Sequence record: OK272470.1
Source of the DNA: Escherichia phage JLBYU50
Reading direction: 5' to 3' (one strand)
Length of the DNA: 64,000 nt
In this document: piece by piece, positions 1,352-14,182 of the stretch
How positions within the stretch are numbered: the first letter of the stretch is position 1
How the letters are laid out: every line of letters begins with the position of its first letter
Position numbers and translations under genes: made by a program
The notes under the pieces: model-generated
The model's database searches: none
The model's input: only the letters and a program-made list of their open reading frames with translations
What the model was told of the DNA's origin: nothing

Positions 1352-2467
1352 TTACTCTGCTGGTTCCCAAGTACCTGGAATCATCTTACGTACACGTACC
1401 CCAACAGGCTTGGTAGGAATACCTTCGTCTGAAAATTCTTCGTACTCTATTTCAACAAATTGACCAATAAGTATCAAAGCATTTTCTTCTTTACGATAGT
1501 TAATGGTTTCATCTGAATCCTTACGCATCAGGAATTCGACTACTTTACCATTTTCCATCTCACCTGTCAATACCCCGTCACCATTTTTATCACGTTTTGC
1601 ACTTACCACCTTAACTTCCAGCGTCTGCCGTGGTTTACGTTTAATAACATCATAAGAACGTTTATCAAACTCGTAAACACCTTGTGCATTACGATACACA
1701 ACACCTTCCGCTTTCTCACGCAGAGCTTTTGCATAGAATTCATCAAACTGCTCTTGGTTTTCAATGTACTCTGTATGTACTACACAAATAAGTTCATCTA
1801 AACCTTTATCTTCAACAACGTCTTTTAGAGCAGCCAAAACTTCAACCCTCTTCTCAAATGGTACAGATGGCACAGGAACATCATATACATAGTATTTAAG
1901 AAGCGGAGTGTTAGCATTATGCTTTTTCCACGCACTATTAATTTGTTGAAGGCTAAGGACACCCAAACCAGCAAAAACTTCACCGTCAAGAGGATGACCA
2001 ACTACTTCTTTAATGAAGGTTGGAATTTCTTTCCAGTGAGGTGGAAGTTTATATACTTCCCCAGCTTTAGATAAACATTCACCTTGCATGTTAATCATTG
2101 AACGTAGACCATTCAATTTATATTGTGCATAACCTGGGAACAAAACACGATCAGCATAATCTTTATAATCCTGACATTTCATGGGTGTGGAAGGAACATG
2201 GTTTTCAGCTTCCTCTTTTGTTTTATAATACCCATTCTTAAGTTGTTTTGTCCATTTGGCAAGAGCTTCTATTTCAGCTTGTTCTTCTGCTGTTGTTTCA
2301 TTTGAGCGACCAATATTTTTAGGTTCTGCTGTATAAGATTTGCTAGTAATCTTTCCACCTAATTGACCATGAGCAACAGTTACAACACTACCTTCGGTAT
2401 AGACTGACCACTGTTTAATTTTACCTGTAGAAGTTTTACCATACAATGTAGGATTAGTTTGTTTCAT
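1352..2467 (-). CDS. ATP-dependent polynucleotide ligase (DNA ligase-like; covalent nucleotidyltransferase superfamily)
   Basis: motif I variant KLNGLR, motif III LDGEVF, motif IV EGVVYR, motif V KRK plus C-terminal OB-like region; start moved to ATG at 2467 (MKQTNPTLYGK) with GGAGG RBS rather than the ORF-track ATG at 2515. Confidence 0.6.
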   Translation of the reverse strand: MKQTNPTLYGKTSTGKIKQWSVYTEGSVVTVAHGQLGGKITSKSYTAEPKNIGRSNETTAEEQAEIEALAKWTKQLKNGYYKTKEEAENHVPSTPMKCQDYKDYADRVLFPGYAQYKLNGLRSMINMQGECLSKAGEVYKLPPHWKEIPTFIKEVVGHPLDGEVFAGLGVLSLQQINSAWKKHNANTPLLKYYVYDVPVPSVPFEKRVEVLAALKDVVEDKGLDELICVVHTEYIENQEQFDEFYAKALREKAEGVVYRNAQGVYEFDKRSYDVIKRKPRQTLEVKVVSAKRDKNGDGVLTGEMENGKVVEFLMRKDSDETINYRKEENALILIGQFVEIEYEEFSDEGIPTKPVGVRVRKMIPGTWEPAE

Positions 2468-6955: not shown

Positions 6956-7149
6956 TTCTTAATAAACTCCAATACAGGTACGTGATCAGCAGTTAAAGTT
7001 ACACAATTGTAACTTACCTTTTCAACTTCAGAGAATGCTTCAACCCATAGCAAGAAATTCTCTTTAGCTTCTTCATAATTCAATGTTGACTTAACAACAT
7101 GGAACTCACCAAGGATGACTCTATAGATTGTTTGCATAGTTTGATTCAT
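6952..7149 (-). CDS. hypothetical protein (65 aa)
   Basis: ORF track. Confidence 0.4.
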   Translation of the reverse strand: MNQTMQTIYRVILGEFHVVKSTLNYEEAKENFLLWVEAFSEVEKVSYNCVTLTADHVPVLEFIKK

Positions 7150-7215
7150 TTATTTTTCCTTTGTTTAAAATGTGTTAAACAATCGCAAATGCTTGTGACG
7201 CACTTTGTGATCCCA

Positions 7216-7584
7216 CTAATTAATGTCAGCACTATGATTGTTGAGAGTATAGGATACTCCATCGCCCAAGTCAACATGAATCTCAACTCCTAACTGTCTT
7301 TCTAATGGTAAACGTTTTGAGAATTGATAATTACAAAGTTTACAGTCTAAGTCAAGCAACTCATGTTTGCTTAAACCTGGGATGATAACTTTGCTTCCCA
7401 CTGTCCACTCAATACCTTCAAAGTTATCTCTTCTTTTCAAAATGTCAAGTAAGAAGATGATTTGTTGCCATTCCGTAGACAAGTCTTCTTCATAGAACGC
7501 AGAACAAAAAGTTTTATCATCGTAGAAAGCATACATTATGCCTCCATCTATTGTTTCACTTCTAACGTAACGTGTGACCCTCAT
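7216..7584 (-). CDS. hypothetical protein (122 aa), first gene of minus-strand operon
   Basis: ORF track; AGGAGG RBS directly upstream on minus strand. Confidence 0.45.
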   Translation of the reverse strand: MRVTRYVRSETIDGGIMYAFYDDKTFCSAFYEEDLSTEWQQIIFLLDILKRRDNFEGIEWTVGSKVIIPGLSKHELLDLDCKLCNYQFSKRLPLERQLGVEIHVDLGDGVSYTLNNHSADIN

Positions 7585-7715
7585 TATTTCCTCCTGTACG
7601 GCTCTGTAACGAGCTAATAGCCTCTAAGATATGCAACCACCTTACCTCACAGTAAAACTCGTTACAATCGTTTTTAGGAGGTTTAGGTTGTACTTAAAAA
7701 TAATCTAAAAAGGTG

Positions 7716-7744
7716 TTGACAAACGCAAAAAAGTATGCTACCCT
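7716..7744 (+). promoter_or_regulatory. sigma70-like promoter (TTGACA-N17-TGcTACCCT)
   Basis: perfect -35 hexamer at 7716-7721, extended -10 at 7736-7744. Confidence 0.4.
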
Positions 7745-7925
7745 AACCCCCGAAAAACGCCGAGCGCAGCGAGGGGGTGTTATCTAATCTTGTGATACAT
7801 GATCTAACAGACAACTTAGTAGTCTACATATAGCACTATGTTATGTCTATAATACTAACATACATGCTCTATACTAACAATAGATTCTTTATTAATTTTA
7901 TTATTAATTAAATAATAAATATCTA

Positions 7926-7954
7926 TTGACTTTAGATCTATCTGTATGTAGAGT
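7926..7954 (+). promoter_or_regulatory. sigma70-like promoter upstream of Prs-like gene
   Basis: TTGACT at 7926-7931, 17-nt spacer, TAGAGT at 7949-7954; followed by AAGGAG RBS. Confidence 0.5.
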
Positions 7955-7993
7955 AGAGAACATAAAGTCCTAACTCAACTAAGGAGATAAACA

Positions 7994-8887
7994 ATGAAAG
8001 TTAGTATTCTGCATGGTGTTGACTGTTATGTTACTGATGTAGACGTTAAAGTCTTTACATTCTCTGGTGGAGAACAGCATGTTCAACTAGATACGAATCT
8101 ATCAGGTTTCAATCATGCTACAGACAGAATCTTACTCACTTTAGAAGTAAGATCTGCTAAAGACTTGATGACTTTGGTTATGACTAAGAATGCATTGGAC
8201 AATATGCTATATCATAAACCATATTGTGTTGATTTGCTCATGTTGTATGTGCCGTATGCACGACAAGACAGAGTGTGTGAGCCTGGGGAAGCATTCGGAG
8301 TTAAAGCCTTTGCTTCTATAATTAATTCATTAAATTTCTCACGTGTTATCGTTGCTGATCCACATAGTGATGTTACGCCAGCAGTGTTTGACAGACTCTG
8401 TGTAATACCTCAAGAAGAGATTGCTTACGAAACTTTAAAGTGGAAGTTACGTATGGAGAATTTTGCTCTTGTTAGTCCTGATGGTGGTGCTCTTAAGAAA
8501 ATATTTAAATTATCTAAGAAAATGTCTTTAGATGTGTTCTGTGCAGAGAAGGTTAGAGATACTGCAACAGGTGCTATTGTTCGTACAGACATTTCTGTAC
8601 AGGATTTCAATAAGCGTAACCTGATGATCGTAGATGATATCTGTGATGGTGGTAGAACTTTTATCGAATTGGCTAAAGTGCTACGTGCTCGTAACGCAGG
8701 TAAGATTGAGTTATATGTTACACACGGTATCTTTTCTAAAGGTCTTAAAGAGTTAAGTGAGCACTTTGACTGCATTCATTCTCTTAATGTGTGGGAAGAT
8801 AACATCCAAGAAGATTCCGGTGTTCTTGTTAAGAATCAGCCAGATTTGCAACAACAAATTGTATCTCCATACGTGTGGAATTTTTAA
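7994..8887 (+). CDS. ribose-phosphate pyrophosphokinase (Prs)-like protein; candidate PRPP or ADP-ribose pyrophosphokinase
   Basis: YVPYARQDR, VIVADPHS, VSPDGGAL and PRTase-type nucleotide loop LMIVDDICDGGRTF; strong RBS. Confidence 0.8.
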   Translation: MKVSILHGVDCYVTDVDVKVFTFSGGEQHVQLDTNLSGFNHATDRILLTLEVRSAKDLMTLVMTKNALDNMLYHKPYCVDLLMLYVPYARQDRVCEPGEAFGVKAFASIINSLNFSRVIVADPHSDVTPAVFDRLCVIPQEEIAYETLKWKLRMENFALVSPDGGALKKIFKLSKKMSLDVFCAEKVRDTATGAIVRTDISVQDFNKRNLMIVDDICDGGRTFIELAKVLRARNAGKIELYVTHGIFSKGLKELSEHFDCIHSLNVWEDNIQEDSGVLVKNQPDLQQQIVSPYVWNF

Positions 8888-11438: not shown

Positions 11439-11514
11439 GGTTCCATAGCTCACTGACGAGAGCGCACACCTCATAAGTGTCGAGGGCAGGGATTGTAACC
11501 CTGGGGAACCACCA
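11439..11514 (+). tRNA. tRNA with CAT anticodon (Met/Ile-type), non-canonical D- and T-loops
   Basis: complete cloverleaf: acceptor GGTTCCA/GGGAACC, D-stem GCTC/GAGC, anticodon loop CTCATAA, T-stem CAGGG/CCCTG, encoded ACCA; T-loop is ATTGTAA rather than TTCRANY. Confidence 0.45.
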
Positions 11515-11545
11515 TTTAAAAGGAGGTGCTATGCATCTCCTATAT

Positions 11546-11631
11546 GCAAGTGTGGTGGAATTGGTGATACACATTGTGCTTAAAACGCAACGCTTAAATG
11601 CTTGAGGGTTCGAATCCCTCCACTTGCACCA
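11546..11631 (+). tRNA. tRNA-Leu (anticodon TAA)
   Basis: acceptor GCAAGTG/CACTTGC, anticodon loop CTTAAAA, long variable arm, T-loop GGTTCGAATCC, ACCA encoded. Confidence 0.8.
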
Positions 11632-11647
11632 ACACCTAAAAAAATAT

Positions 11648-11677
11648 CTTGACATTTACTTAGTTTTTTGTTATAGT
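11648..11677 (+). promoter_or_regulatory. sigma70-like promoter inside tRNA array
   Basis: TTGACA 11648-11653, 18-nt spacer, TATAGT 11672-11677. Confidence 0.45.
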
Positions 11678-11687
11678 TACTATGAAA

Positions 11688-11769
11688 ACGGGGTGTATCT
11701 CACCTGACTTCTAATCAGGCGTTAACCGAGTAATTGGAGTATGCAGGTTCGAATCCTGTCACCCCGGCC
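11688..11769 (+). tRNA. atypical tRNA-like gene, anticodon hairpin reads TCT (Arg-type)
   Basis: perfect acceptor CGGGGTG/CACCCCG, canonical T-arm GCAGG-TTCGAAT-CCTGT, GCCA 3' end, perfect hairpin CCTGA-CTTCTAA-TCAGG; no conventional D-arm fits between acceptor and this hairpin. Confidence 0.4.
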
Positions 11770-11787
11770 AAAAAGTTTTAAAAACTA

Positions 11788-11817
11788 CTTGACAAGCAAG
11801 ATAGTTTTATGTTAGAT
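11788..11817 (+). promoter_or_regulatory. sigma70-like promoter inside tRNA array
   Basis: TTGACA 11788-11793, 18-nt spacer, TAGATT 11812-11817. Confidence 0.4.
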
Positions 11818-11833
11818 TTAAAGTATAATAACT

Positions 11834-11923
11834 GGAAGGTAGGGCGCAGCGGTGCGCAACCAGGTTTGAACCCTGGCCCATTGTAGCGATACGGTGATGG
11901 TTCGACTCCATTATCTTCCTCCA
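11834..11923 (+). tRNA. tRNA-Ser (anticodon TGA)
   Basis: acceptor GGAAGGT/ATCTTCC, anticodon stem CCAGG/CCTGG with loop TTTGAAC, long variable arm, T-loop TTCGACT, TCCA 3' end. Confidence 0.7.
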
Positions 11924-11929
11924 AATTCA

Positions 11930-12094
11930 ATGAGTGATTTTATGAATTATAAAACTATTGGACAGGTTGTTACCGGAGTTAAGATTGTAAATAATAAAGT
12001 TGTTTATGAGTATTCTAATCTTCAACAATCTGAAGATGGTAAGAATATTCGTATGGTAAAAGAAGAACAAAAAGATTCCGGTTGTTTTGAATAA
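11930..12094 (+). CDS. possible small protein (54 aa) between tRNA genes
   Basis: ORF-track ORF 11894..12094 starts inside the tRNA-Ser; first ATG after the tRNA is at 11930; no clear RBS. Confidence 0.25.
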   Translation: MSDFMNYKTIGQVVTGVKIVNNKVVYEYSNLQQSEDGKNIRMVKEEQKDSGCFE

Positions 12095-12102
12095 TTAAAA
12101 AC

Positions 12103-12188
12103 GGTAGATTGGTGAAATGGTAGCCACAACAGTTTGCTAAACTGTCGTCGGAAACGGCGTGTAGGTTCAAGTCCTACATCTACCGCCA
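12103..12188 (+). tRNA. tRNA-Ser (anticodon GCT)
   Basis: acceptor GGTAGAT/ATCTACC, anticodon stem ACAGT/ACTGT loop TTGCTAA, long variable arm, T-arm TAGG-TTCAAGT-CCTA, GCCA. Confidence 0.8.
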
Positions 12189-12315
12189 AGTTATCTTTAA
12201 TGTAGCTTGTCATCTTACTTTAATAGAGTAAACTTTCGGCAGATGGCCCCCCACCATCTTACCGATATCCCATAGTCAAGTGCCGCAAACACTGGCTATT
12301 TTAAAGATAATTTAT

Positions 12316-12391
12316 ACATCGTTAGCTTAGTTGGTAGAGCAAGGGGCTTTTAACTCCAAGGTCGAAGGTTCGAATCCTTCACGATGTACCA
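12316..12391 (+). tRNA. tRNA-Lys (anticodon TTT)
   Basis: acceptor ACATCGT/ACGATGT, D-arm TAGCTTAGTTGGTAGAGC, anticodon loop CTTTTAA, T-loop GGTTCGAATCC, ACCA. Confidence 0.75.
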
Positions 12392-12396
12392 AACAC

Positions 12397-12483
12397 GTAG
12401 GTATCGCATAGCGGCAATTGCTGGAGACTGTAAATCTCTTGCCCTTCGGGGCTTCGTTGGTTCGAGTCCAACTACCTGCACCA
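12397..12483 (+). tRNA. tRNA-Tyr (anticodon GTA)
   Basis: acceptor GTAGGTA/TACCTGC, anticodon loop CTGTAAA, long variable arm, T-arm GTTGG-TTCGAGT-CCAAC, ACCA. Confidence 0.75.
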
Positions 12484-12490
12484 AATTAAA

Positions 12491-12575
12491 GATGGATTGG
12501 CCTAGTGGTTGGGCGACGGACTGTTAATCCGTGAACGAAAGTTCTAGCAAGGTTCAAATCCTTGATCCATCGCCA
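12491..12575 (+). tRNA. tRNA with GTT anticodon (Asn-type) carrying a long variable arm
   Basis: acceptor GATGGAT/ATCCATC, anticodon stem ACGGA/TCCGT loop CTGTTAA, 15-nt variable hairpin GAAC-GAAA-GTTC, T-loop GGTTCAAATCC, GCCA. Confidence 0.55.
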
Positions 12576-12580
12576 AATAG

Positions 12581-12646
12581 TGCTTGTAGAGTTAATAGAA
12601 ACCTCTAGAATTTTCTAGAATTGTAGGTATCAAATCCTACCAAGCA
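12581..12646 (+). other. degenerate tRNA-like remnant
   Basis: acceptor-like TGCTTG/CAAGCA and T-arm-like GTAGG-TATCAAAT-CCTAC, but no foldable anticodon arm and no CCA. Confidence 0.25.
12604..12620. repeat. tandem direct repeat TCTAGAA-TTT-TCTAGAA
   Basis: two copies of TCTAGAA (each containing palindromic TCTAGA) separated by TTT, read directly at 12604-12620. Confidence 0.7.
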
Positions 12647-12654
12647 AATATTTT

Positions 12655-12729
12655 GCTCCTATCGTATAACGGCTATTACGGTTGCCTTGTAAGCAACTTA
12701 TCAGGGTTCGAGTCCTTGTGGGAGCACCA
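12655..12729 (+). tRNA. tRNA-Thr (anticodon TGT)
   Basis: acceptor GCTCCTA/TGGGAGC, anticodon stem GTTGC/GCAAC loop CTTGTAA, T-loop GGGTTCGAGTCC, ACCA. Confidence 0.8.
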
Positions 12730-12751
12730 ATTTAACTCTAAAGGAGTGTAT

Positions 12752-13075
12752 GTGACAGAAAAAGAGTTAGAGGAATATTTTAATATCAATGTTTTCGATG
12801 GTTTTGATGATATTGAAGATGTTGAAAGATATTATGAAGTAGAGTTAGATAAGGATAACATTGTAATTCTTTCTGCAACTTATGATTGTGCATATTATGA
12901 AGGCGAATCTCACGTTTATTTTTATGATATGAAAACATCTTTGTTTTATGAAGTACACGCATATCATTGTTCTTGTTATGGCTTAGAAGGTCAGTGGGAA
13001 CCTGAAGAAATAGGTGATTTGGACTTTACTATTGCATATCTAAACAGACGTGGTGCATCTACTATTTTAAAATAA
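12752..13075 (+). CDS. hypothetical protein (107 aa)
   Basis: ORF-track ORF 12653..13075 starts inside tRNA-Thr; start re-set to in-frame GTG at 12752, 5 nt after AAGGAG. Confidence 0.4.
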   Translation: MTEKELEEYFNINVFDGFDDIEDVERYYEVELDKDNIVILSATYDCAYYEGESHVYFYDMKTSLFYEVHAYHCSCYGLEGQWEPEEIGDLDFTIAYLNRRGASTILK

Positions 13076-13089
13076 ATATCAAAAGCCTC

Positions 13090-13119
13090 TTGACAAAGGG
13101 GCTAATAATATGTTAGAGT
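13090..13119 (+). promoter_or_regulatory. sigma70-like promoter inside tRNA array
   Basis: TTGACA 13090-13095, 18-nt spacer, TAGAGT 13114-13119. Confidence 0.4.
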
Positions 13120-13130
13120 AATATTGTTAA

Positions 13131-13205
13131 GCGGGTATAGTGTTAATGGTAGCATATGAGGTTTCCACCCTCCAGGTGCAGGTTCAAGTCCTGTTACTCG
13201 CTCCA
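13131..13205 (+). tRNA. tRNA-Gly (anticodon TCC)
   Basis: acceptor GCGGGTA/TACTCGC, anticodon loop TTTCCAC, T-arm GCAGG-TTCAAGT-CCTGT, TCCA. Confidence 0.75.
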
Positions 13206-13304
13206 AGATTATTTAAATGGAATCGCTAGAGAAAATTTCTCTTTTCGCTCATGGTTTTCTCCTTCAAACTCTAGCGGTTCTTTTTAAGTGATTTTTAGTT
13301 TTAT

Positions 13305-13379
13305 TGGAGATTAGCCTAGTGGGAAGGCAACGGCCTTTGAAGTCGTGATGACTAGGTTCGATTCCTAGATCTCCAGCCA
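13305..13379 (+). tRNA. tRNA-Gln (anticodon TTG)
   Basis: acceptor TGGAGAT/ATCTCCA, D-arm GCCTAGTGGGAAGGC, anticodon loop CTTTGAA, T-arm CTAGG-TTCGATT-CCTAG, GCCA. Confidence 0.8.
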
Positions 13380-13386
13380 ATATTTA

Positions 13387-13462
13387 CAGTGCGTAGCGCA
13401 GTTGGTAGCGTGGGAGCCTTGGACGCTTCAGGTCGCAGGTTCGAGTCCTGCCGCACTGACCA
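13387..13462 (+). tRNA. tRNA-Pro (anticodon TGG)
   Basis: acceptor CAGTGCG/CGCACTG, D-arm GCGCAGTTGGTAGCGT, anticodon loop CTTGGAC, T-arm GCAGG-TTCGAGT-CCTGC, ACCA. Confidence 0.8.
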
Positions 13463-13467
13463 AATTT

Positions 13468-13542
13468 GCAGAGATAGCTGAGACGGATTAGTGCTACCCT
13501 GAAAAGGTAGAAAGGATGGATCGTTACCATCTCTCTGCACCA
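13468..13542 (+). tRNA. tRNA-Phe (anticodon GAA)
   Basis: acceptor GCAGAGA/TCTCTGC, anticodon stem CTACC/GGTAG loop CTGAAAA, T-stem GATGG/CCATC (loop ATCGTTA), ACCA. Confidence 0.7.
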
Positions 13543-13617
13543 AATATCACCATCCAAGGAGTAGACTTGGTTAACTGTCAATAGCACATTGAGGCTTCTT
13601 ACAGTGGTGTATTTTAT

Positions 13618-13702
13618 GGCTAAGTGGTGGAATGGTATACACGATACGCTTAGAACGTATTGCCCCAAGGGATTGTGAGTTCGAGTCTCACCTTAGCTAC
13701 CA
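13618..13702 (+). tRNA. tRNA-Leu (anticodon TAG)
   Basis: acceptor GGCTAAG/CTTAGCT, anticodon stem ATACG/CGTAT loop CTTAGAA, long variable arm, T-arm GTGAG-TTCGAGT-CTCAC, ACCA. Confidence 0.8.
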
Positions 13703-13780
13703 TATCTAAGAGATATCATAGGGTTTGCAACGGATATCTACCGTCCTGTTAAGGATACCACGCCAAGACGGGTTATAAAG

Positions 13781-13856
13781 GGTTAGCCATTGATAGTGTG
13801 AAGCTGGCGTTTCGAGTGCTTTCATAAGGCATTGCGAGAAGAGTTCGATCCTCTTA
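13781..13856 (+). tRNA. tRNA with CAT anticodon (Met or Ile-lysidine type)
   Basis: perfect acceptor TGATAGT/ACTATCA, anticodon loop TTCATAA, T-arm AAGAG-TTCGATC-CTCTT, ACCA. Confidence 0.65.
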
Positions 13857-13871
13857 CTATCAACCAAATTA

Positions 13872-13950
13872 TTACAGATTGTGCGGGATAGAGGAGTCTG
13901 GTCGTCCTCGCCAGTTTCATATGCTGGAGATCATCGGTTCGAATCCGATT
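13872..13950 (+). tRNA. tRNA with CAT anticodon (Met or Ile-lysidine type), 1:72 mismatch
   Basis: acceptor TGCGGGA/TCCCGCC with unpaired first position, anticodon loop TTCATAT, T-arm ATCGG-TTCGAAT-CCGAT, TCCA. Confidence 0.6.
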
Positions 13951-13994
13951 CCCGCCTCCAATAAATACCTCCCTTCTGGTGTAATGATTAAGTT

Positions 13995-14091
13995 ACATTG
14001 ACACTTCAAGGAACTCATAGCCGGGTAGATTTAAAAGAGTATGGTACTCAATATGGCTCCAAACCATAGATCAGGGGGTTCGATTCCTCAC
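13995..14091 (+). tRNA. tRNA-like element with Trp-type anticodon arm (CCA); 5' half non-canonical
   Basis: perfect anticodon arm TATGG-CTCCAAA-CCATA, T-loop GGTTCGATTCC, GCCA 3' end; no 7-bp acceptor partner at the expected distance, only a 5-bp CAAGG/CCTTG pairing about 40 nt upstream. Confidence 0.35.
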
Positions 14092-14106
14092 CTTGCTGCC
14101 AATTAT

Positions 14107-14182
14107 TGTGGTATCGTACAGATGGTTAGTACACTCGACCGATAATCGAGAAACAACGGTTCGACTCCGTTTACCACGACCA
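14107..14182 (+). tRNA. tRNA-Ile (anticodon GAT)
   Basis: acceptor TGTGGTA/TACCACG, D-arm GTAC-AGATGGTTA-GTAC, anticodon stem CTCGA/TCGAG loop CCGATAA, T-arm AACGG-TTCGACT-CCGTT, ACCA. Confidence 0.75.

What the first reader, a model, noticed from the sequence alone, without database searches (positions are those of the whole stretch)
7585..7993. AT-rich divergent control region with a long GC-clamped hairpin and iterated short motifs
Seen: 400-bp non-coding gap between the leftward operon (start 7584) and the rightward NAD+ genes. It contains a hairpin ACCCCC-(20 nt)-GGGGGT (7745-7782), three copies of (A/T)CTAACA (about 7801, 7852, 7873), an ATTAATTTTATTATTAATTAAAT repeat (about 7890-7915) and two TTGACA-type promoters. 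Inference: bidirectional early promoter hub and possibly a replication origin or host-factor (IHF/Fis-like) binding region.
Basis: seen in the sequence. Interest (0 to 1): 0.4.

Follow-up and report, generated by a model that had tools for sequence, protein, structure and literature searches.

The report
Repeated phage promoter with leader hairpin
The gap is the divergent early-promoter region of a phi92-like E. coli phage, and its GC hairpin belongs to a conserved promoter-plus-hairpin cassette found three times per genome across this phage subfamily, whose function is still unknown.

Summary
The described features are all present. The window is a phi92-like myovirus (Justusliebigvirus). The 409-bp gap lies between a leftward early operon and rightward prs-nadV-tRNA genes.

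The conserved unit is a cassette: TTGACA, 17-bp spacer with TG, invariant TACCCT -10, then a small hairpin, CC-GA-GC-GNA-GC-GA-GG (7758-7776), with tandem G.A mismatches. Its outer pairs covary.

The cassette occurs three times per genome in all Stephanstirmvirinae lineages sampled: Escherichia, Klebsiella and Citrobacter phages. One copy sits with no ORF downstream between opposite-strand genes.

The same hairpin core is the 3' hairpin of Rfam GA-cis (window scores below threshold). It also lies about 125 nt past the ColE1 origin and is widespread in metagenomes.

The CTAACA repeats read on the other strand as TGTTAGTAT, an extended -10 for a leftward promoter. The AT tract, the most AT-rich stretch in 64 kb, abuts the -35 of a second conserved rightward promoter.

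Best reading: a host-RNA-polymerase early promoter hub whose P1 transcript starts with a conserved structured leader. A transcription-primed origin is not excluded. No DnaA boxes, iterons or IHF sites are present.

The parts
7585..7993 (.). Divergent non-coding gap between the leftward early operon (gp106A homologue, start codon 7584-7582) and rightward prs
7695..7712 (+). A-tract directly upstream of the P1 -35, resembling an UP element
   Evidence: read from the sequence; inference
7716..7744 (+). P1: TTGACA (7716-7721), 17-bp spacer with TG at 7736-7737, -10 TACCCT (7739-7744). Predicted start about 7751-7753.
   Evidence: The -35, the 17-18 bp spacing, TGC and TACCCT are kept in 32 distinct copies from many genomes. 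The start site is inferred.
7758..7776 (+). Conserved tandem-G.A hairpin: C7758-G7776, G.G mismatch, C7760-G7774, C7761-G7773, G7762.A7772, A7763.G7771, G7764-C7770, C7765-G7769, loop G7766-C7767-A7768
   Evidence: invariant core in 19 distinct copies and covarying outer pairs. It is in the predicted fold of most copies. It aligns to the 3' hairpin of Rfam GA-cis.
7746..7778 (.). It is specific to phi92-like copy 1. A C-run/G-run pair recurs in an unrelated podovirus-like group.
   Evidence: The 5' arm lies mostly upstream of the predicted P1 start, so it could form only in DNA or in a leftward transcript (inference).
7669..7759 (.). 20-nt inverted repeat (7669-7688 / 7740-7759, 80% complementary) bracketing the P1 -35 and -10. 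Unexplained.
   Evidence: I2. Duplex energy z = -5.8 (+) and -3.1 (-) in this lineage only, not in the other lineages or copies.
7605..7666 (.). Perfect 9-bp inverted repeat TGTAACGAG / CTCGTTACA with 44 nt between the arms, in the putative leader of the leftward operon
   Evidence: I14. This stretch is not conserved outside phi92-like phages.
7801..7826 (+). Conserved block GATCTAACAGACAACTTAGTAGTCTA. It contains the first CTAACA and a GATC.
   Evidence: nearly identical in Tr1; function unknown
7852..7880 (-). Leftward promoter candidate: -35 TTGTTA (7880 to 7875), 17-bp spacer, TG (7860-7859), -10 TAGTAT (7857 to 7852). The two ATACTAACA copies (7852-7860, 7871-7879) are its -10 and -35 regions read on the + strand.
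   Evidence: Tr1 keeps TTGTAA-N17-TAGTAT. Not conserved in the Klebsiella lineage.
7879..7929 (.). AT tract: 95% A+T, palindromic, with length polymorphism between close relatives
   Evidence: the single most AT-rich 41-nt cluster in 64 kb. Relatives carry 12-bp and other insertions. AT-rich in all three lineages. It abuts the P2 -35.
7926..7954 (+). P2: TTGACT (7926-7931), 17-bp spacer, TAGAGT (7949-7954). It drives prs (SD AGGAG 7982-7986, ATG 7994).
   Evidence: TTGACC-N17-TACACT or TAGTAT sits at the same place in the Klebsiella phages and in Tr1.

Best explanation
The gap is the divergent early-transcription control region of a phi92-like phage, read by the host sigma-70 RNA polymerase.

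Rightward there are two tandem promoters. P2 has an AT-rich upstream tract that looks like an UP element, and it sits just before prs. P1 is one copy of a cassette kept three times per genome throughout the Stephanstirmvirinae. The cassette is a near-consensus -35, a 17-bp spacer with an extended -10 TG, an invariant TACCCT -10, and, 11-15 nt further on, a small hairpin with two tandem G.A mismatches and a G-N-A loop.

I propose that transcription from P1 starts about 7 nt after TACCCT. The first 25-30 nt of the RNA would then fold into this hairpin. The hairpin would act in cis as a shared leader signal of three early transcription units, either protecting the 5' end or, more specifically, binding a protein that sets the fate of the transcript or of the elongating polymerase.

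It would converge on P1.

Shown: the promoter geometry and its conservation, the hairpin covariation, its strand specificity and its copy number. Inferred: the start sites, that the hairpin acts as RNA, and what it does.
For: - Identity: 99.6% to Escherichia phage Antha and 98.5% to phi92.
- P1 is an exact TTGACA-N14-TGN-TANNNT match. Three such matches occur in 64 kb against 0.07 expected.
- In Tr1 and the Klebsiella phages (prs protein only 63-64% identical), conservation begins at the P1 -35 and runs rightward. The left third of the gap is unrelated.
- The cassette hits three places per genome in phi92-like and Klebsiella phages, and at least two in Phapecoctavirus. 32 distinct versions keep TTGAC(A/T), 17-18 bp spacing and TACCCT.
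- Hairpin pairs: pair 9-24 is CG in 9 and AU in 7 sequences. Pair 7-26 is CG 7, UA 7, UG 4, GU 1, with none unpaired. Covariation score is 0.338 against 0.19 in shuffles (0 of 500 reach it) and 0.11-0.16 for slid partners.
- The G.U pairs and the invariant G.A/A.G pairs would be A.C and C.U on the other strand. The hairpin therefore belongs to the strand that has the sense of the P1 transcript.
- In the commonest copy-1 type (GAAGUU...GAUUC) the helix starts at position +7 after the -10, which is the expected start site.
- Copy 2 sits just upstream of a small membrane-protein gene. The stretch after the hairpin can pair with that gene's Shine-Dalgarno region.
- Copy 3 points against the flanking genes in an ORF-free gap, in four lineages.
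- The same hairpin is the 3' hairpin of an Rfam RNA family, GA-cis.
- P2 and its AT tract are conserved in all lineages.
Against: - No transcript or start-site data exist for any member of this phage group.
- The invariance of TACCCT in every copy is not explained by a plain -10 role.
- In this window the outer C5/G5 stem and the 20-nt repeat I2 involve bases upstream of the predicted start. In several other copies the predicted helix also reaches to +1 to +5 after the -10. These would not be in a P1 transcript, which points to a structure in DNA or in another RNA.
- The hairpin's predicted energy is ordinary (z about -0.3 for 7756-7778).
- No binding partner is known.
- The core hairpin is so widespread that it may simply be a very stable generic module.
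Confidence: 0.5

Rival explanations
1. Transcription-primed replication origin. RNA from P1 would form a persistent R-loop over the G-rich initially transcribed region. The displaced non-template strand would fold into the stable tandem-G.A hairpin and serve as a primosome or primase loading signal. The AT tract 110 nt downstream would be the unwinding element. The three cassettes would be three origins, as in T4.
For: - A promoter followed by the most AT-rich stretch of the 64 kb.
- Copy 3 of Klebsiella phage KP13-26 is likewise followed by an AT-rich repetitive tract with no gene to serve.
- The hairpin lies on the non-template strand.
- The core 14-mer CCGAGCGCAGCGAG is identical to a stretch of the pMB1/pUC backbone (hits).
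- ColE1 itself has ACCGAGCGTAGCGAGT on the RNA II-sense strand, by my own hand count about 125 nt past the RNA-DNA switch landmark (sequence shown; the distance was not computed). ColE1 replication exposes its primosome assembly signal (n' pas / ssiA) as DNA polymerase I extends the primer from that switch (PMC3167613). The distance of that signal from the origin (about 150 nt) and the exact site limits are from my memory only, not verified.
- The cumulative GC-skew minimum of the window is here.
Against: - The skew switch coincides with the switch of coding strand (same conclusion for rV5).
- No DnaA boxes, iterons or IHF site.
- Copy 2 has no AT tract and sits directly before a gene.
- The AT tract in copy 1 is where an UP element of P2 would be.
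- The hairpin is at +8 to +26 of the transcript, against hundreds of nt in ColE1.
- The core hairpin is common in many unrelated contexts, so the ColE1 match may be convergence on a stable hairpin.
Confidence: 0.17
2. Small non-coding or antisense RNA genes. Each cassette would make a short RNA. In copy 1 it would be antisense to the long leader of the leftward operon started at 7845. In copy 3 it would be antisense to the surrounding operon. These RNAs would regulate the opposite transcripts, or the convergent promoters would interfere with each other.
For: - Copy 3 has no ORF downstream and points against its neighbours in four lineages.
- P1 and the leftward candidate promoter are face to face, about 95 bp apart.
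- Second hairpins follow the first in all copies.
Against: - No intrinsic terminator follows the cassette in the window or in copy 3.
- The leftward distal promoter is not conserved in the Klebsiella lineage. That lineage has a good proximal promoter instead, TTGACA-N17-TATCAT, read.
- Copy 2 is in sense orientation directly before a gene.
Confidence: 0.13
3. Processive antitermination signal of the nut/put kind. The nascent hairpin, alone or with a phage protein, would modify RNA polymerase so that it reads through terminators and Rho sites of long early units, including the untranslated tRNA cluster.
For: - Position just after early promoters, and a small hairpin with a G...A-closed loop, as in lambda boxB (from established knowledge).
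- The rightward unit of copy 1 runs into 16 tRNA genes.
- A cassette in a Phapecoctavirus-like contig lies about 600 nt upstream of tRNA genes on the same strand.
- In the Klebsiella lineage copy 2 is followed by a long stem plus TTTTCTTTT before the gene.
Against: - No boxA: TGCTCTATACTAACAA at 7865-7880 has a 4-nt insertion relative to rrn boxA and is not kept in the Klebsiella phages.
- No terminator lies between P1 and prs in the window.
- No N-like protein was identified (not searched).
- No Rfam match to any known antitermination RNA.
Confidence: 0.1
4. Ordinary AT-rich promoter region. The hairpin and motifs would be chance features of no function.
For: - The hairpin energy is within the range of shuffled sequence.
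- The promoter-like scan count equals expectation: 7 found, 6.6 expected.
Against: - Invariant core and covarying stem in 19 or more distinct copies.
- Three copies per genome across genera.
- Conservation stands out against diverged flanks.
Confidence: 0.03

Closest known systems
E. coli sigma-70 extended -10 promoters with UP elements, as in T4-type phage early promoters
   Same: TTGACA/TTGACT -35, 17-bp spacer, TG at -15/-14, TAnnnT -10 and A/T-rich upstream tracts. Located at the head of divergent early operons of a large virulent myovirus.
   Different: The -10 is TACCCT, invariant in all copies rather than drifting around TATAAT. The promoter is physically coupled to a conserved hairpin 11-15 nt downstream.
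Rfam GA-cis RNA (RF02987)
   Same: The 3' hairpin of the family, GCC-G-CC-GA-GC-GNRA-GC-GA-GG-G-GGC, is the same hairpin. This includes the tandem G.A pairs and the G.G mismatch below them.
   Different: The window scores 21.3 bits against a gathering score of 34.7. The other phage copies give no hit at E up to 5. True members found here are in Lachnospiraceae and Eubacterium. They form tandem 86-88-nt units, each with a Shine-Dalgarno sequence, a 5-codon mini-ORF and a first CGAAG hairpin, located before a 488-aa ORF that I take from its first residues, by eye, to be murE-like (it was not run against any family library). None of that is present in the phage. In the phage, the model's variable loop is filled by the promoter itself.
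ColE1/pMB1 origin region: displaced-strand primosome assembly signal (n' pas / ssiA)
   Same: ACCGAGCG(T/C)AGCGAGT lies on the RNA II-sense strand, by my own hand count about 125 nt past the origin landmark (sequence shown; for pMB1-type backbones). The phage hairpin is also on the non-template strand downstream of a promoter.
   Different: Whether this hairpin is inside the mapped PriA site is from memory only; the papers were not held. The distance from the promoter is about 10 nt in the phage and about 700 nt in ColE1. No evidence links these phages to PriA.
Transcription-primed phage origins (T4 oriF/oriG, T7 primary origin)
   Same: A promoter followed by an AT-rich, easily unwound stretch, with several copies per genome.
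   Different: No functional data. Copy 2 lacks the AT tract. The AT tract of copy 1 doubles as the upstream region of P2.
Lambda nut boxB / HK022 put RNAs
   Same: A small structured RNA element immediately after early promoters.
   Different: No boxA, no sequence or model match, and no known partner.

Membership tests
sigma-70 extended -10 promoter (P1) | -35 hexamer close to TTGACA, 16-18 bp spacer | tested here: met
   TTGACA at 7716-7721 with a 17-bp spacer; 17-18 bp in 32 distinct copies
sigma-70 extended -10 promoter (P1) | TGn directly upstream of a TAnnnT -10 | tested here: met
   TGC TACCCT at 7736-7744. The hexamer matches TATAAT at only 3 of 6 positions.
sigma-70 extended -10 promoter (P1) | Transcription initiates 5-9 nt downstream | not testable with these tools
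   no transcript data found
Rfam GA-cis (RF02987) | Covariance-model score at or above the gathering score (34.7 bits) | tested here: not met
   21.3 bits, E = 0.022 in 251 nt and 0.14 in 1.6 kb. True members score 53-84 bits.
Rfam GA-cis (RF02987) | 3' hairpin with tandem G.A pairs and a G...A loop | tested here: met
   aligned column by column; covariation in the phage copies
Rfam GA-cis (RF02987) | 5' AGGAGG plus a first hairpin with a CGAAG loop; tandem units before a gene | tested here: not met
   in the window the model's first hairpin is replaced by 61 nt holding the promoter. No tandem units.
Transcription-primed origin (T4 oriF type, T7, ColE1) | Promoter followed by an AT-rich unwinding element | tested here: met
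   P1 at 7716-7744; the AT tract 7879-7929 is the most AT-rich stretch in 64 kb. The tract also fits an UP element of P2.
Transcription-primed origin (T4 oriF type, T7, ColE1) | Persistent R-loop and initiation of DNA synthesis at the site | not testable with these tools
   needs wet-lab mapping
Transcription-primed origin (T4 oriF type, T7, ColE1) | Strand-composition switch independent of gene orientation | tested here: inconclusive
   the skew minimum is at about 8000 but coincides with the change of coding strand
DnaA- or iteron-type origin | DnaA boxes or iterated binding sites (iterons) | tested here: not met
   no TTWTNCACA in the gap; no tandem repeat
IHF-bound control region | WATCAANNNNTTR consensus | tested here: not met
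   5 matches in 64 kb, none in the gap
Intrinsic terminator | GC-rich stem directly followed by a U run, conserved | tested here: not met
   only a weak minus-strand match at 7771 to 7758 followed by TTTTTC. The T run is absent in Tr1 and the Klebsiella phages.
lambda-type nut site | boxA (CGCUCUUA / UGCUCUUUAACAA) next to a boxB hairpin | tested here: not met
   the nearest match, TGCTCTATACTAACAA at 7865-7880, has a 4-nt insertion and is not conserved
Genome terminus / packaging site | Coincides with the physical ends of virion DNA | tested here: not met
   BME3 has 342-bp direct terminal repeats by PhageTerm (PMC12210895), and this region lies at 98-99 kb of that record. This assumes the BME3 record begins at its terminal repeat, which I did not check. 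Only the ALITA record is broken here, inside the AT tract.

The most novel reading that the evidence does not exclude
The cassette is a new kind of phage replication or transcription signal built on a very widespread tandem-G.A mini-hairpin. The same hairpin occurs in the ColE1 origin region, in the GA-cis RNA of gut Firmicutes, in a podovirus-like group and in thousands of environmental contigs. Under this reading it is recognised by one common cellular partner: either a primosome/helicase loader on the displaced DNA strand, which would make the three cassettes R-loop origins, or a conserved RNA-binding or RNA-polymerase-associated factor.
Probability: 0.15. Interest if true: 0.75.

Novelty: new variant of a known kind. 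Interest (0 to 1): 0.45.

Why it matters
Nothing is known about how phi92/phAPEC8-type phages, which are used in therapy cocktails, organise early transcription or start replication. A cassette kept three times per genome across Escherichia, Klebsiella and Citrobacter members is a concrete, mutable handle on one of these processes. It sits at the heads of early units and once stands alone between opposite-strand genes. The hairpin core also links three contexts not previously connected: an Rfam family of unknown function, the ColE1 origin region, and abundant environmental palindromes. One binding or stability experiment could therefore inform all of them. If the cassette is only a strong promoter with a stabilising leader, it is still a compact, portable expression element for E. 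coli.

Tried and rejected
1. tRNA or tmRNA in the gap: none. The 16 tRNAs lie at 11439-14182.
2. Known RNA families: nothing reaches a gathering score. The only hit is sub-threshold GA-cis. In particular there is no NAD+, PRPP or other riboswitch before prs-nadV.
3. Small ORFs in the gap are 22-25 aa without support. Some records annotate 'hypothetical proteins' here. I treat these as spurious.
4. A collection scan with the GC core alone (GCCGAGCGNAGCGAGG) returned only unrelated GC-rich contigs, so it was uninformative.
5. A strict GA-cis consensus pattern found nothing in viral contigs.
6. Genome terminus or pac site. This was suggested by the ALITA record ending at about 7879. I rejected it because BME3 termini were mapped by PhageTerm and that record places this region internally, assuming the record starts at its terminal repeat. 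The break falls in the AT tract, where assemblies often break.
7. Minus-strand terminator at 7771 to 7758: not conserved.
8. The 20-nt repeat I2 as part of a conserved RNA: significant only in phi92-like copy 1.
9. rrn-type boxA at 7865-7880: has an insertion and is not conserved.
10. The primary papers on the pBR322/ColE1 factor Y (PriA) sites could not be read. The overlap of the hairpin with the mapped site therefore remains unverified.
11. Literature search for the cassette sequences found only plasmid-backbone listings.
12. No transcriptome of this phage group was found.
Full report
**Identity and setting**

The window is a phi92-like myovirus (genus Justusliebigvirus, subfamily Stephanstirmvirinae). 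Bases 7000-8600 are 99.6% identical to Escherichia phage Antha and 98.5% identical to phi92, and 54 records cover at least 80% of the query.

The finding lies between a minus-strand ORF (7216-7584, the homologue of phi92 gp106A) and the plus-strand ribose-phosphate pyrophosphokinase gene prs (7994-8887). Downstream of prs come nadV and a cluster of 16 tRNA genes. The gap carries no annotation in phi92 or Antha.

**Check of the observation**

- ACCCCC at 7746-7751 and GGGGGT at 7773-7778, with 21 nt between them.
- (A/T)CTAACA at 7803, 7854 and 7873.
- TTGACA at 7716 and TTGACT at 7926.

Against chance the picture is mixed.
- The hairpin energy is ordinary for such a GC-rich patch: z = -1.6 as RNA, with 15 of 200 shuffles as stable, and z = -1.3 as DNA.
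- The motif count is three against 0.115 expected.
- The 9-mer ATACTAACA occurs only twice in the 64 kb, both here.
- The AT tract (7879-7929, 95% A+T) is the single most AT-rich 41-nt stretch of the window.
- It is palindromic but is not a tandem repeat.

**What evolution keeps**

All 50-odd close relatives are 95-100% identical across the gap, so they carry little information. Three more distant lineages were therefore used: Citrobacter phage Tr1 and the Klebsiella phages phi1_175008, KP13-26 and KP2025. Their prs proteins are 63-64% identical to the window's.

In alignments the left third of the gap (7585-7700) is unrelated between lineages. From the P1 -35 rightward there are sharp conserved blocks:
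- TTGAC(A/T).
- A spacer ending in TATGC.
- An invariant TACCCTAA.
- An invariant GCCGAGCG(A/C)AGCGAGG.
- Further right, a second promoter, CTATTGAC(T/C)-N17-TA(G/C)A(G/C)T or TAGTAT, preceded by an AT-rich tract.

**A repeated cassette**

A scan of IMG/VR for TGCTACCCTAA-N9-14-GCCGAGCG found two hits in one 148.7-kb contig at different places. BLAST with the 74-nt unit then found three places per genome in phi92-like and Klebsiella phages. It found one in Phapecoctavirus, and a second there when copy 3 was used as the query.

In Antha the three copies are as follows.
- Copy 1 is this gap.
- Copy 2 is at 33.3 kb. It lies on the same strand as its operon, directly before a small membrane-protein gene, the phi92 gp208 homologue.
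- Copy 3 is at 6.36 kb. It points against minus-strand genes on both sides and has no ORF downstream.

The odd context of copy 3 is the same in KP13-26, phAPEC8_ev052 and phiWec186. Only copy 1 lies inside the window.

A looser pattern recovered all three copies in each of three ~150-kb viral contigs. Pooling all fetched loci gives 32 distinct versions. All have TTGAC(A/T) or TTTTAC, 17-18 bp of spacing, TG and TACCCT. This geometry is that of a sigma-70 extended -10 promoter. The exact pattern TTGACA-N14-TGN-TANNNT occurs three times in the window against 0.07 expected.

**The hairpin**

The invariant core reads C-GA-GC-G-N(1-2)-A-GC-GA-G. That is a closing C-G pair, two tandem G.A mismatches, two G-C pairs, and a loop that always begins with G and ends with A. 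The loops seen are GAA, GCA, GAUA, GGGA and GGA.

Below the core the stem continues with pairs that covary. In 19 distinct copies:
- Pair 9-24 is C-G in nine and A-U in seven.
- Pair 7-26 is C-G in seven, U-A in seven and U.G or G.U in five, and is never unpaired.
- 77.6% of cells are paired, against 34-47% when the partners are slid.
- The covariation score is 0.338, against 0.19 in shuffles (0 of 500 reach it) and 0.11-0.16 for slid partners.

Sixteen of the paired cells are G.U type. These, and the invariant G.A pairs, would be mismatches on the complementary strand. The structure therefore belongs to the strand that has the sense of the P1 transcript, either as RNA or as the displaced non-template DNA strand.

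The core is a mirror repeat, not an inverted repeat. This argues against a palindromic double-stranded operator (inference).

In the window the hairpin is 7758-7776 and is part of the predicted fold of a transcript starting at 7752. In the commonest copy-1 type the helix (GAAGUU...GAUUC) begins exactly at +7 after the -10, where transcription is expected to start. That would make it a 5'-terminal stem-loop.

**The other features of the gap**

*The CTAACA repeats.* Read on the minus strand, the two ATACTAACA copies are TGTTAGTAT, an extended -10. With TTGTTA 17 bp upstream (7880 to 7875) this is the best leftward promoter candidate in the gap. Tr1 keeps TTGTAA-N17-TAGTAT at the same place.

The Klebsiella phages and Tr1 also have a good promoter close to the leftward gene (TTGACA-N17-TATCAT and TTGACT-N17-TACCAT, read). 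The phi92-like lineage lacks it. If the distal promoter is used here, the leftward and P1 transcripts converge and overlap by about 95 nt.

*The AT tract.* It abuts the -35 of P2, where an UP element would lie. It varies in length between near-identical phages: a 12-bp duplication in the inny group and another insertion in an IMG contig. This fits a composition-dependent role.

*Unexplained repeats.* A 20-nt inverted repeat brackets the P1 promoter (7669-7688 / 7740-7759). It is significant only in this lineage and remains unexplained. So does the 9-bp repeat at 7605-7613 / 7658-7666.

**Comparison with known things**

No Rfam family reaches its gathering score. The one sub-threshold match is informative. 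GA-cis (RF02987) aligns full length to 7673-7788 at 21.3 bits (threshold 34.7), and its 3' hairpin is column for column the cassette hairpin, including the G.G mismatch below the C-C/G-G pairs.

I located true GA-cis members in Lachnospiraceae, Eubacterium and Coprococcus genomes; they score 53-84 bits. They are tandem 86-88-nt units. Each has a Shine-Dalgarno sequence, a five-codon mini-ORF and a first hairpin, and the units lie before a 488-aa ORF that I take from its first residues, by eye, to be murE-like; it was not searched against any family library. The phage shares the hairpin and nothing else, so it is not a member.

A text search for the core sequences hit only listings of pMB1-type plasmid backbones. 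ColE1 itself carries ACCGAGCGTAGCGAGT on the RNA II-sense strand. By my own hand count this lies about 125 nt beyond the origin landmark (one search printed the sequence; I did not compute the distance). ColE1 replication exposes a primosome assembly signal as DNA polymerase I extends the primer from the origin (PMC3167613).

The distance of that signal from the origin, and whether the hairpin lies inside the mapped PriA site, I recall but could not verify.

Scans of viral and metagenome collections showed two further things.
- An unrelated podovirus-like group (SU10-type portal, terminase) has two inverted copies of TACCCT-C7-hairpin in its own divergent gap.
- The bare core is very common in environmental contigs of all GC contents. 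It is capped by covarying outer stems such as ATTCC/GGAAT, ATCCC/GGGAT and ATTTC/GAAAT. The mean outer run is 2.35 pairs against 0.43 in a slid control.

The hairpin is therefore a widespread module. What is particular to these phages is its fixed coupling to a TACCCT promoter.

**Mechanism**

The best-supported reading is an early promoter hub used by host RNA polymerase, in which P1 is a copy of a conserved promoter-plus-leader-hairpin cassette. I think the hairpin most likely acts in the nascent or mature RNA, as a 5'-terminal protective structure or as the binding site of a factor shared by three early units.

The reasons:
- The structure is specific to the transcript-sense strand.
- It begins at the expected start site in most copies.
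- It sits before a gene whose ribosome-binding site can pair with the adjacent segment in copy 2.
- It is found in an accepted RNA family.

Three facts do not fit neatly:
- TACCCT never varies.
- In this window, and in some other copies, stem bases lie upstream of the predicted start.
- Copy 3 has nothing to express.

P1 would form an R-loop, the stable hairpin would form on the displaced strand as in ColE1, and the AT tract would unwind. In favour: the AT tract here, and a similar AT-rich repetitive tract after copy 3 of KP13-26. Against: copy 2 has no AT tract, classical origin motifs are absent, and the GC-skew switch is confounded with gene orientation.

An sRNA/antisense role and a nut/put-type antitermination role are weaker alternatives. 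Chance is excluded by the conservation.

**Verdict**

The 'promoter hub' interpretation is supported at sequence level. The hairpin is real, but the functional unit is the inner tandem-G.A hairpin, not the GC clamp. The origin and host-factor ideas are untested, and IHF is not supported.

The cassette appears not to have been described: no annotation in the records inspected and no paper found. I rate it as a new variant of a known kind, with moderate interest. Interest would rise if the origin reading, or a common partner for the widespread hairpin, were shown.

Noticed in passing
L142 2030-2165 (IMGVR_UViG_3300030060_005339); also L148 10610-10735 and about 25 other IMG/VR and metagenome contigs: A podovirus-like group (Terminase_6C, SU10-type portal) has two inverted copies of TACCCTATCCCCCCC(A/T)ACGAGCG(A/G/C)AGCGAGTGGG. 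They sit in a divergent gap between small leftward genes and the terminase gene. Each copy is preceded by a GGCGAAGCC mini-hairpin. The TACCCT + C-run + tandem-G.A hairpin + G-run logic matches the window, in an unrelated phage.
   Followed up: partly
L247 1029-1202; L232 4911-5169; L184 5562-5810; L181 7000-7089: True Rfam GA-cis RNAs in Lachnospiraceae/Eubacterium are tandem 86-88-nt units. Each contains a Shine-Dalgarno sequence and a 5-codon mini-ORF (ATG ACG AAG TCA TAT TAA). In L247 they lie directly before a 488-aa ORF whose first residues look murE-like by eye (not run against any family library). This looks like repeated decoy gene starts or a leader-peptide device.
   Followed up: partly
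metagenome loci L299-L418, e.g. L312, L323, L348, L311, L328: The core CGAGCG-N-AGCGAG is very common in environmental contigs of 32-71% GC. It forms the tip of palindromes such as TGTCATTCCGAGCGAAGCGAGGAATCTC, with covarying outer stems. Some (L307, L341) are long perfect palindromes whose bases include TACCCTA/TAGGGTA. It is a widespread repeat class that I could not name.
   Followed up: partly
L298 (ColE1 NC_001371.1) 1331: ColE1 carries ACCGAGCGTAGCGAGT followed by GAGCGAGGAAGCGGAAAAGCG on the RNA II-sense strand just past the origin. GAAAAACGCC, a 10-mer at the ColE1 RNA-DNA switch region, also occurs at window 7752-7761. It is not conserved in other cassette copies, so it is probably coincidence.
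   Followed up: partly
window 7669-7688 / 7740-7759: A 20-nt inverted repeat (80% complementary) brackets the -35 and -10 of P1. It is significant against shuffles only in the phi92-like lineage. Its function is unknown: a DNA cruciform, or a stem in a leftward leader RNA.
   Followed up: partly
window 11649-11677 (+) and 1542-1570 (-): Two more exact TTGACA-N14-TGN-TANNNT promoters. The first lies inside the tRNA cluster, between tRNA-Leu and tRNA-Ser.
   Followed up: no
L139 430-500 and L140 430-500 (copy 3 of Phapecoctavirus); L135 6300-6350: Copy 3 has a repeated ATTGATAGG motif just upstream of its -35, twice in Phapecoctavirus and inverted in Antha. The motif is absent from copies 1 and 2.
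   Followed up: no
L169 303-451 and about 1111 (IMGVR_UViG_3300014004_000001): In a 153-kb Phapecoctavirus-like contig one cassette copy lies about 600 nt upstream of two tRNA genes on the same strand. This parallels copy 1 here, which heads the unit that runs into the tRNA cluster.
   Followed up: no
L001 5552-5702 (phi92 FR775895.2 49736-49886): The phi92 record annotates a 151-nt 'hypothetical tRNA' inside the nadV coding sequence. ARAGORN finds no tRNA at the matching window position, so it is probably an annotation artefact.
   Followed up: no
window 7536-7584; phi92 gp106A/gp106B: phi92 annotates two in-frame starts for the first leftward gene. A GTTACA-N16-AATAAT promoter-like match (7610 to 7583) overlaps the first start codon and could serve only the shorter form.
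   Followed up: no
records MG065639, MG065645, MG065656, MG065689: Four records named 'Campylobacter phage' with host C. jejuni are 98.6% identical to this E. coli phage over 1.6 kb. This probably reflects contamination or mislabelling in those deposits.
   Followed up: no
window 7879-7929; L003 1823-1848; L130; PP359570 ends: The AT tract is a hot spot of small insertions among otherwise near-identical phages (a 12-bp AATTAAATAATA duplication, and TTATTTATTAA insertions). One deposited genome (ALITA) is broken inside it.
   Followed up: partly
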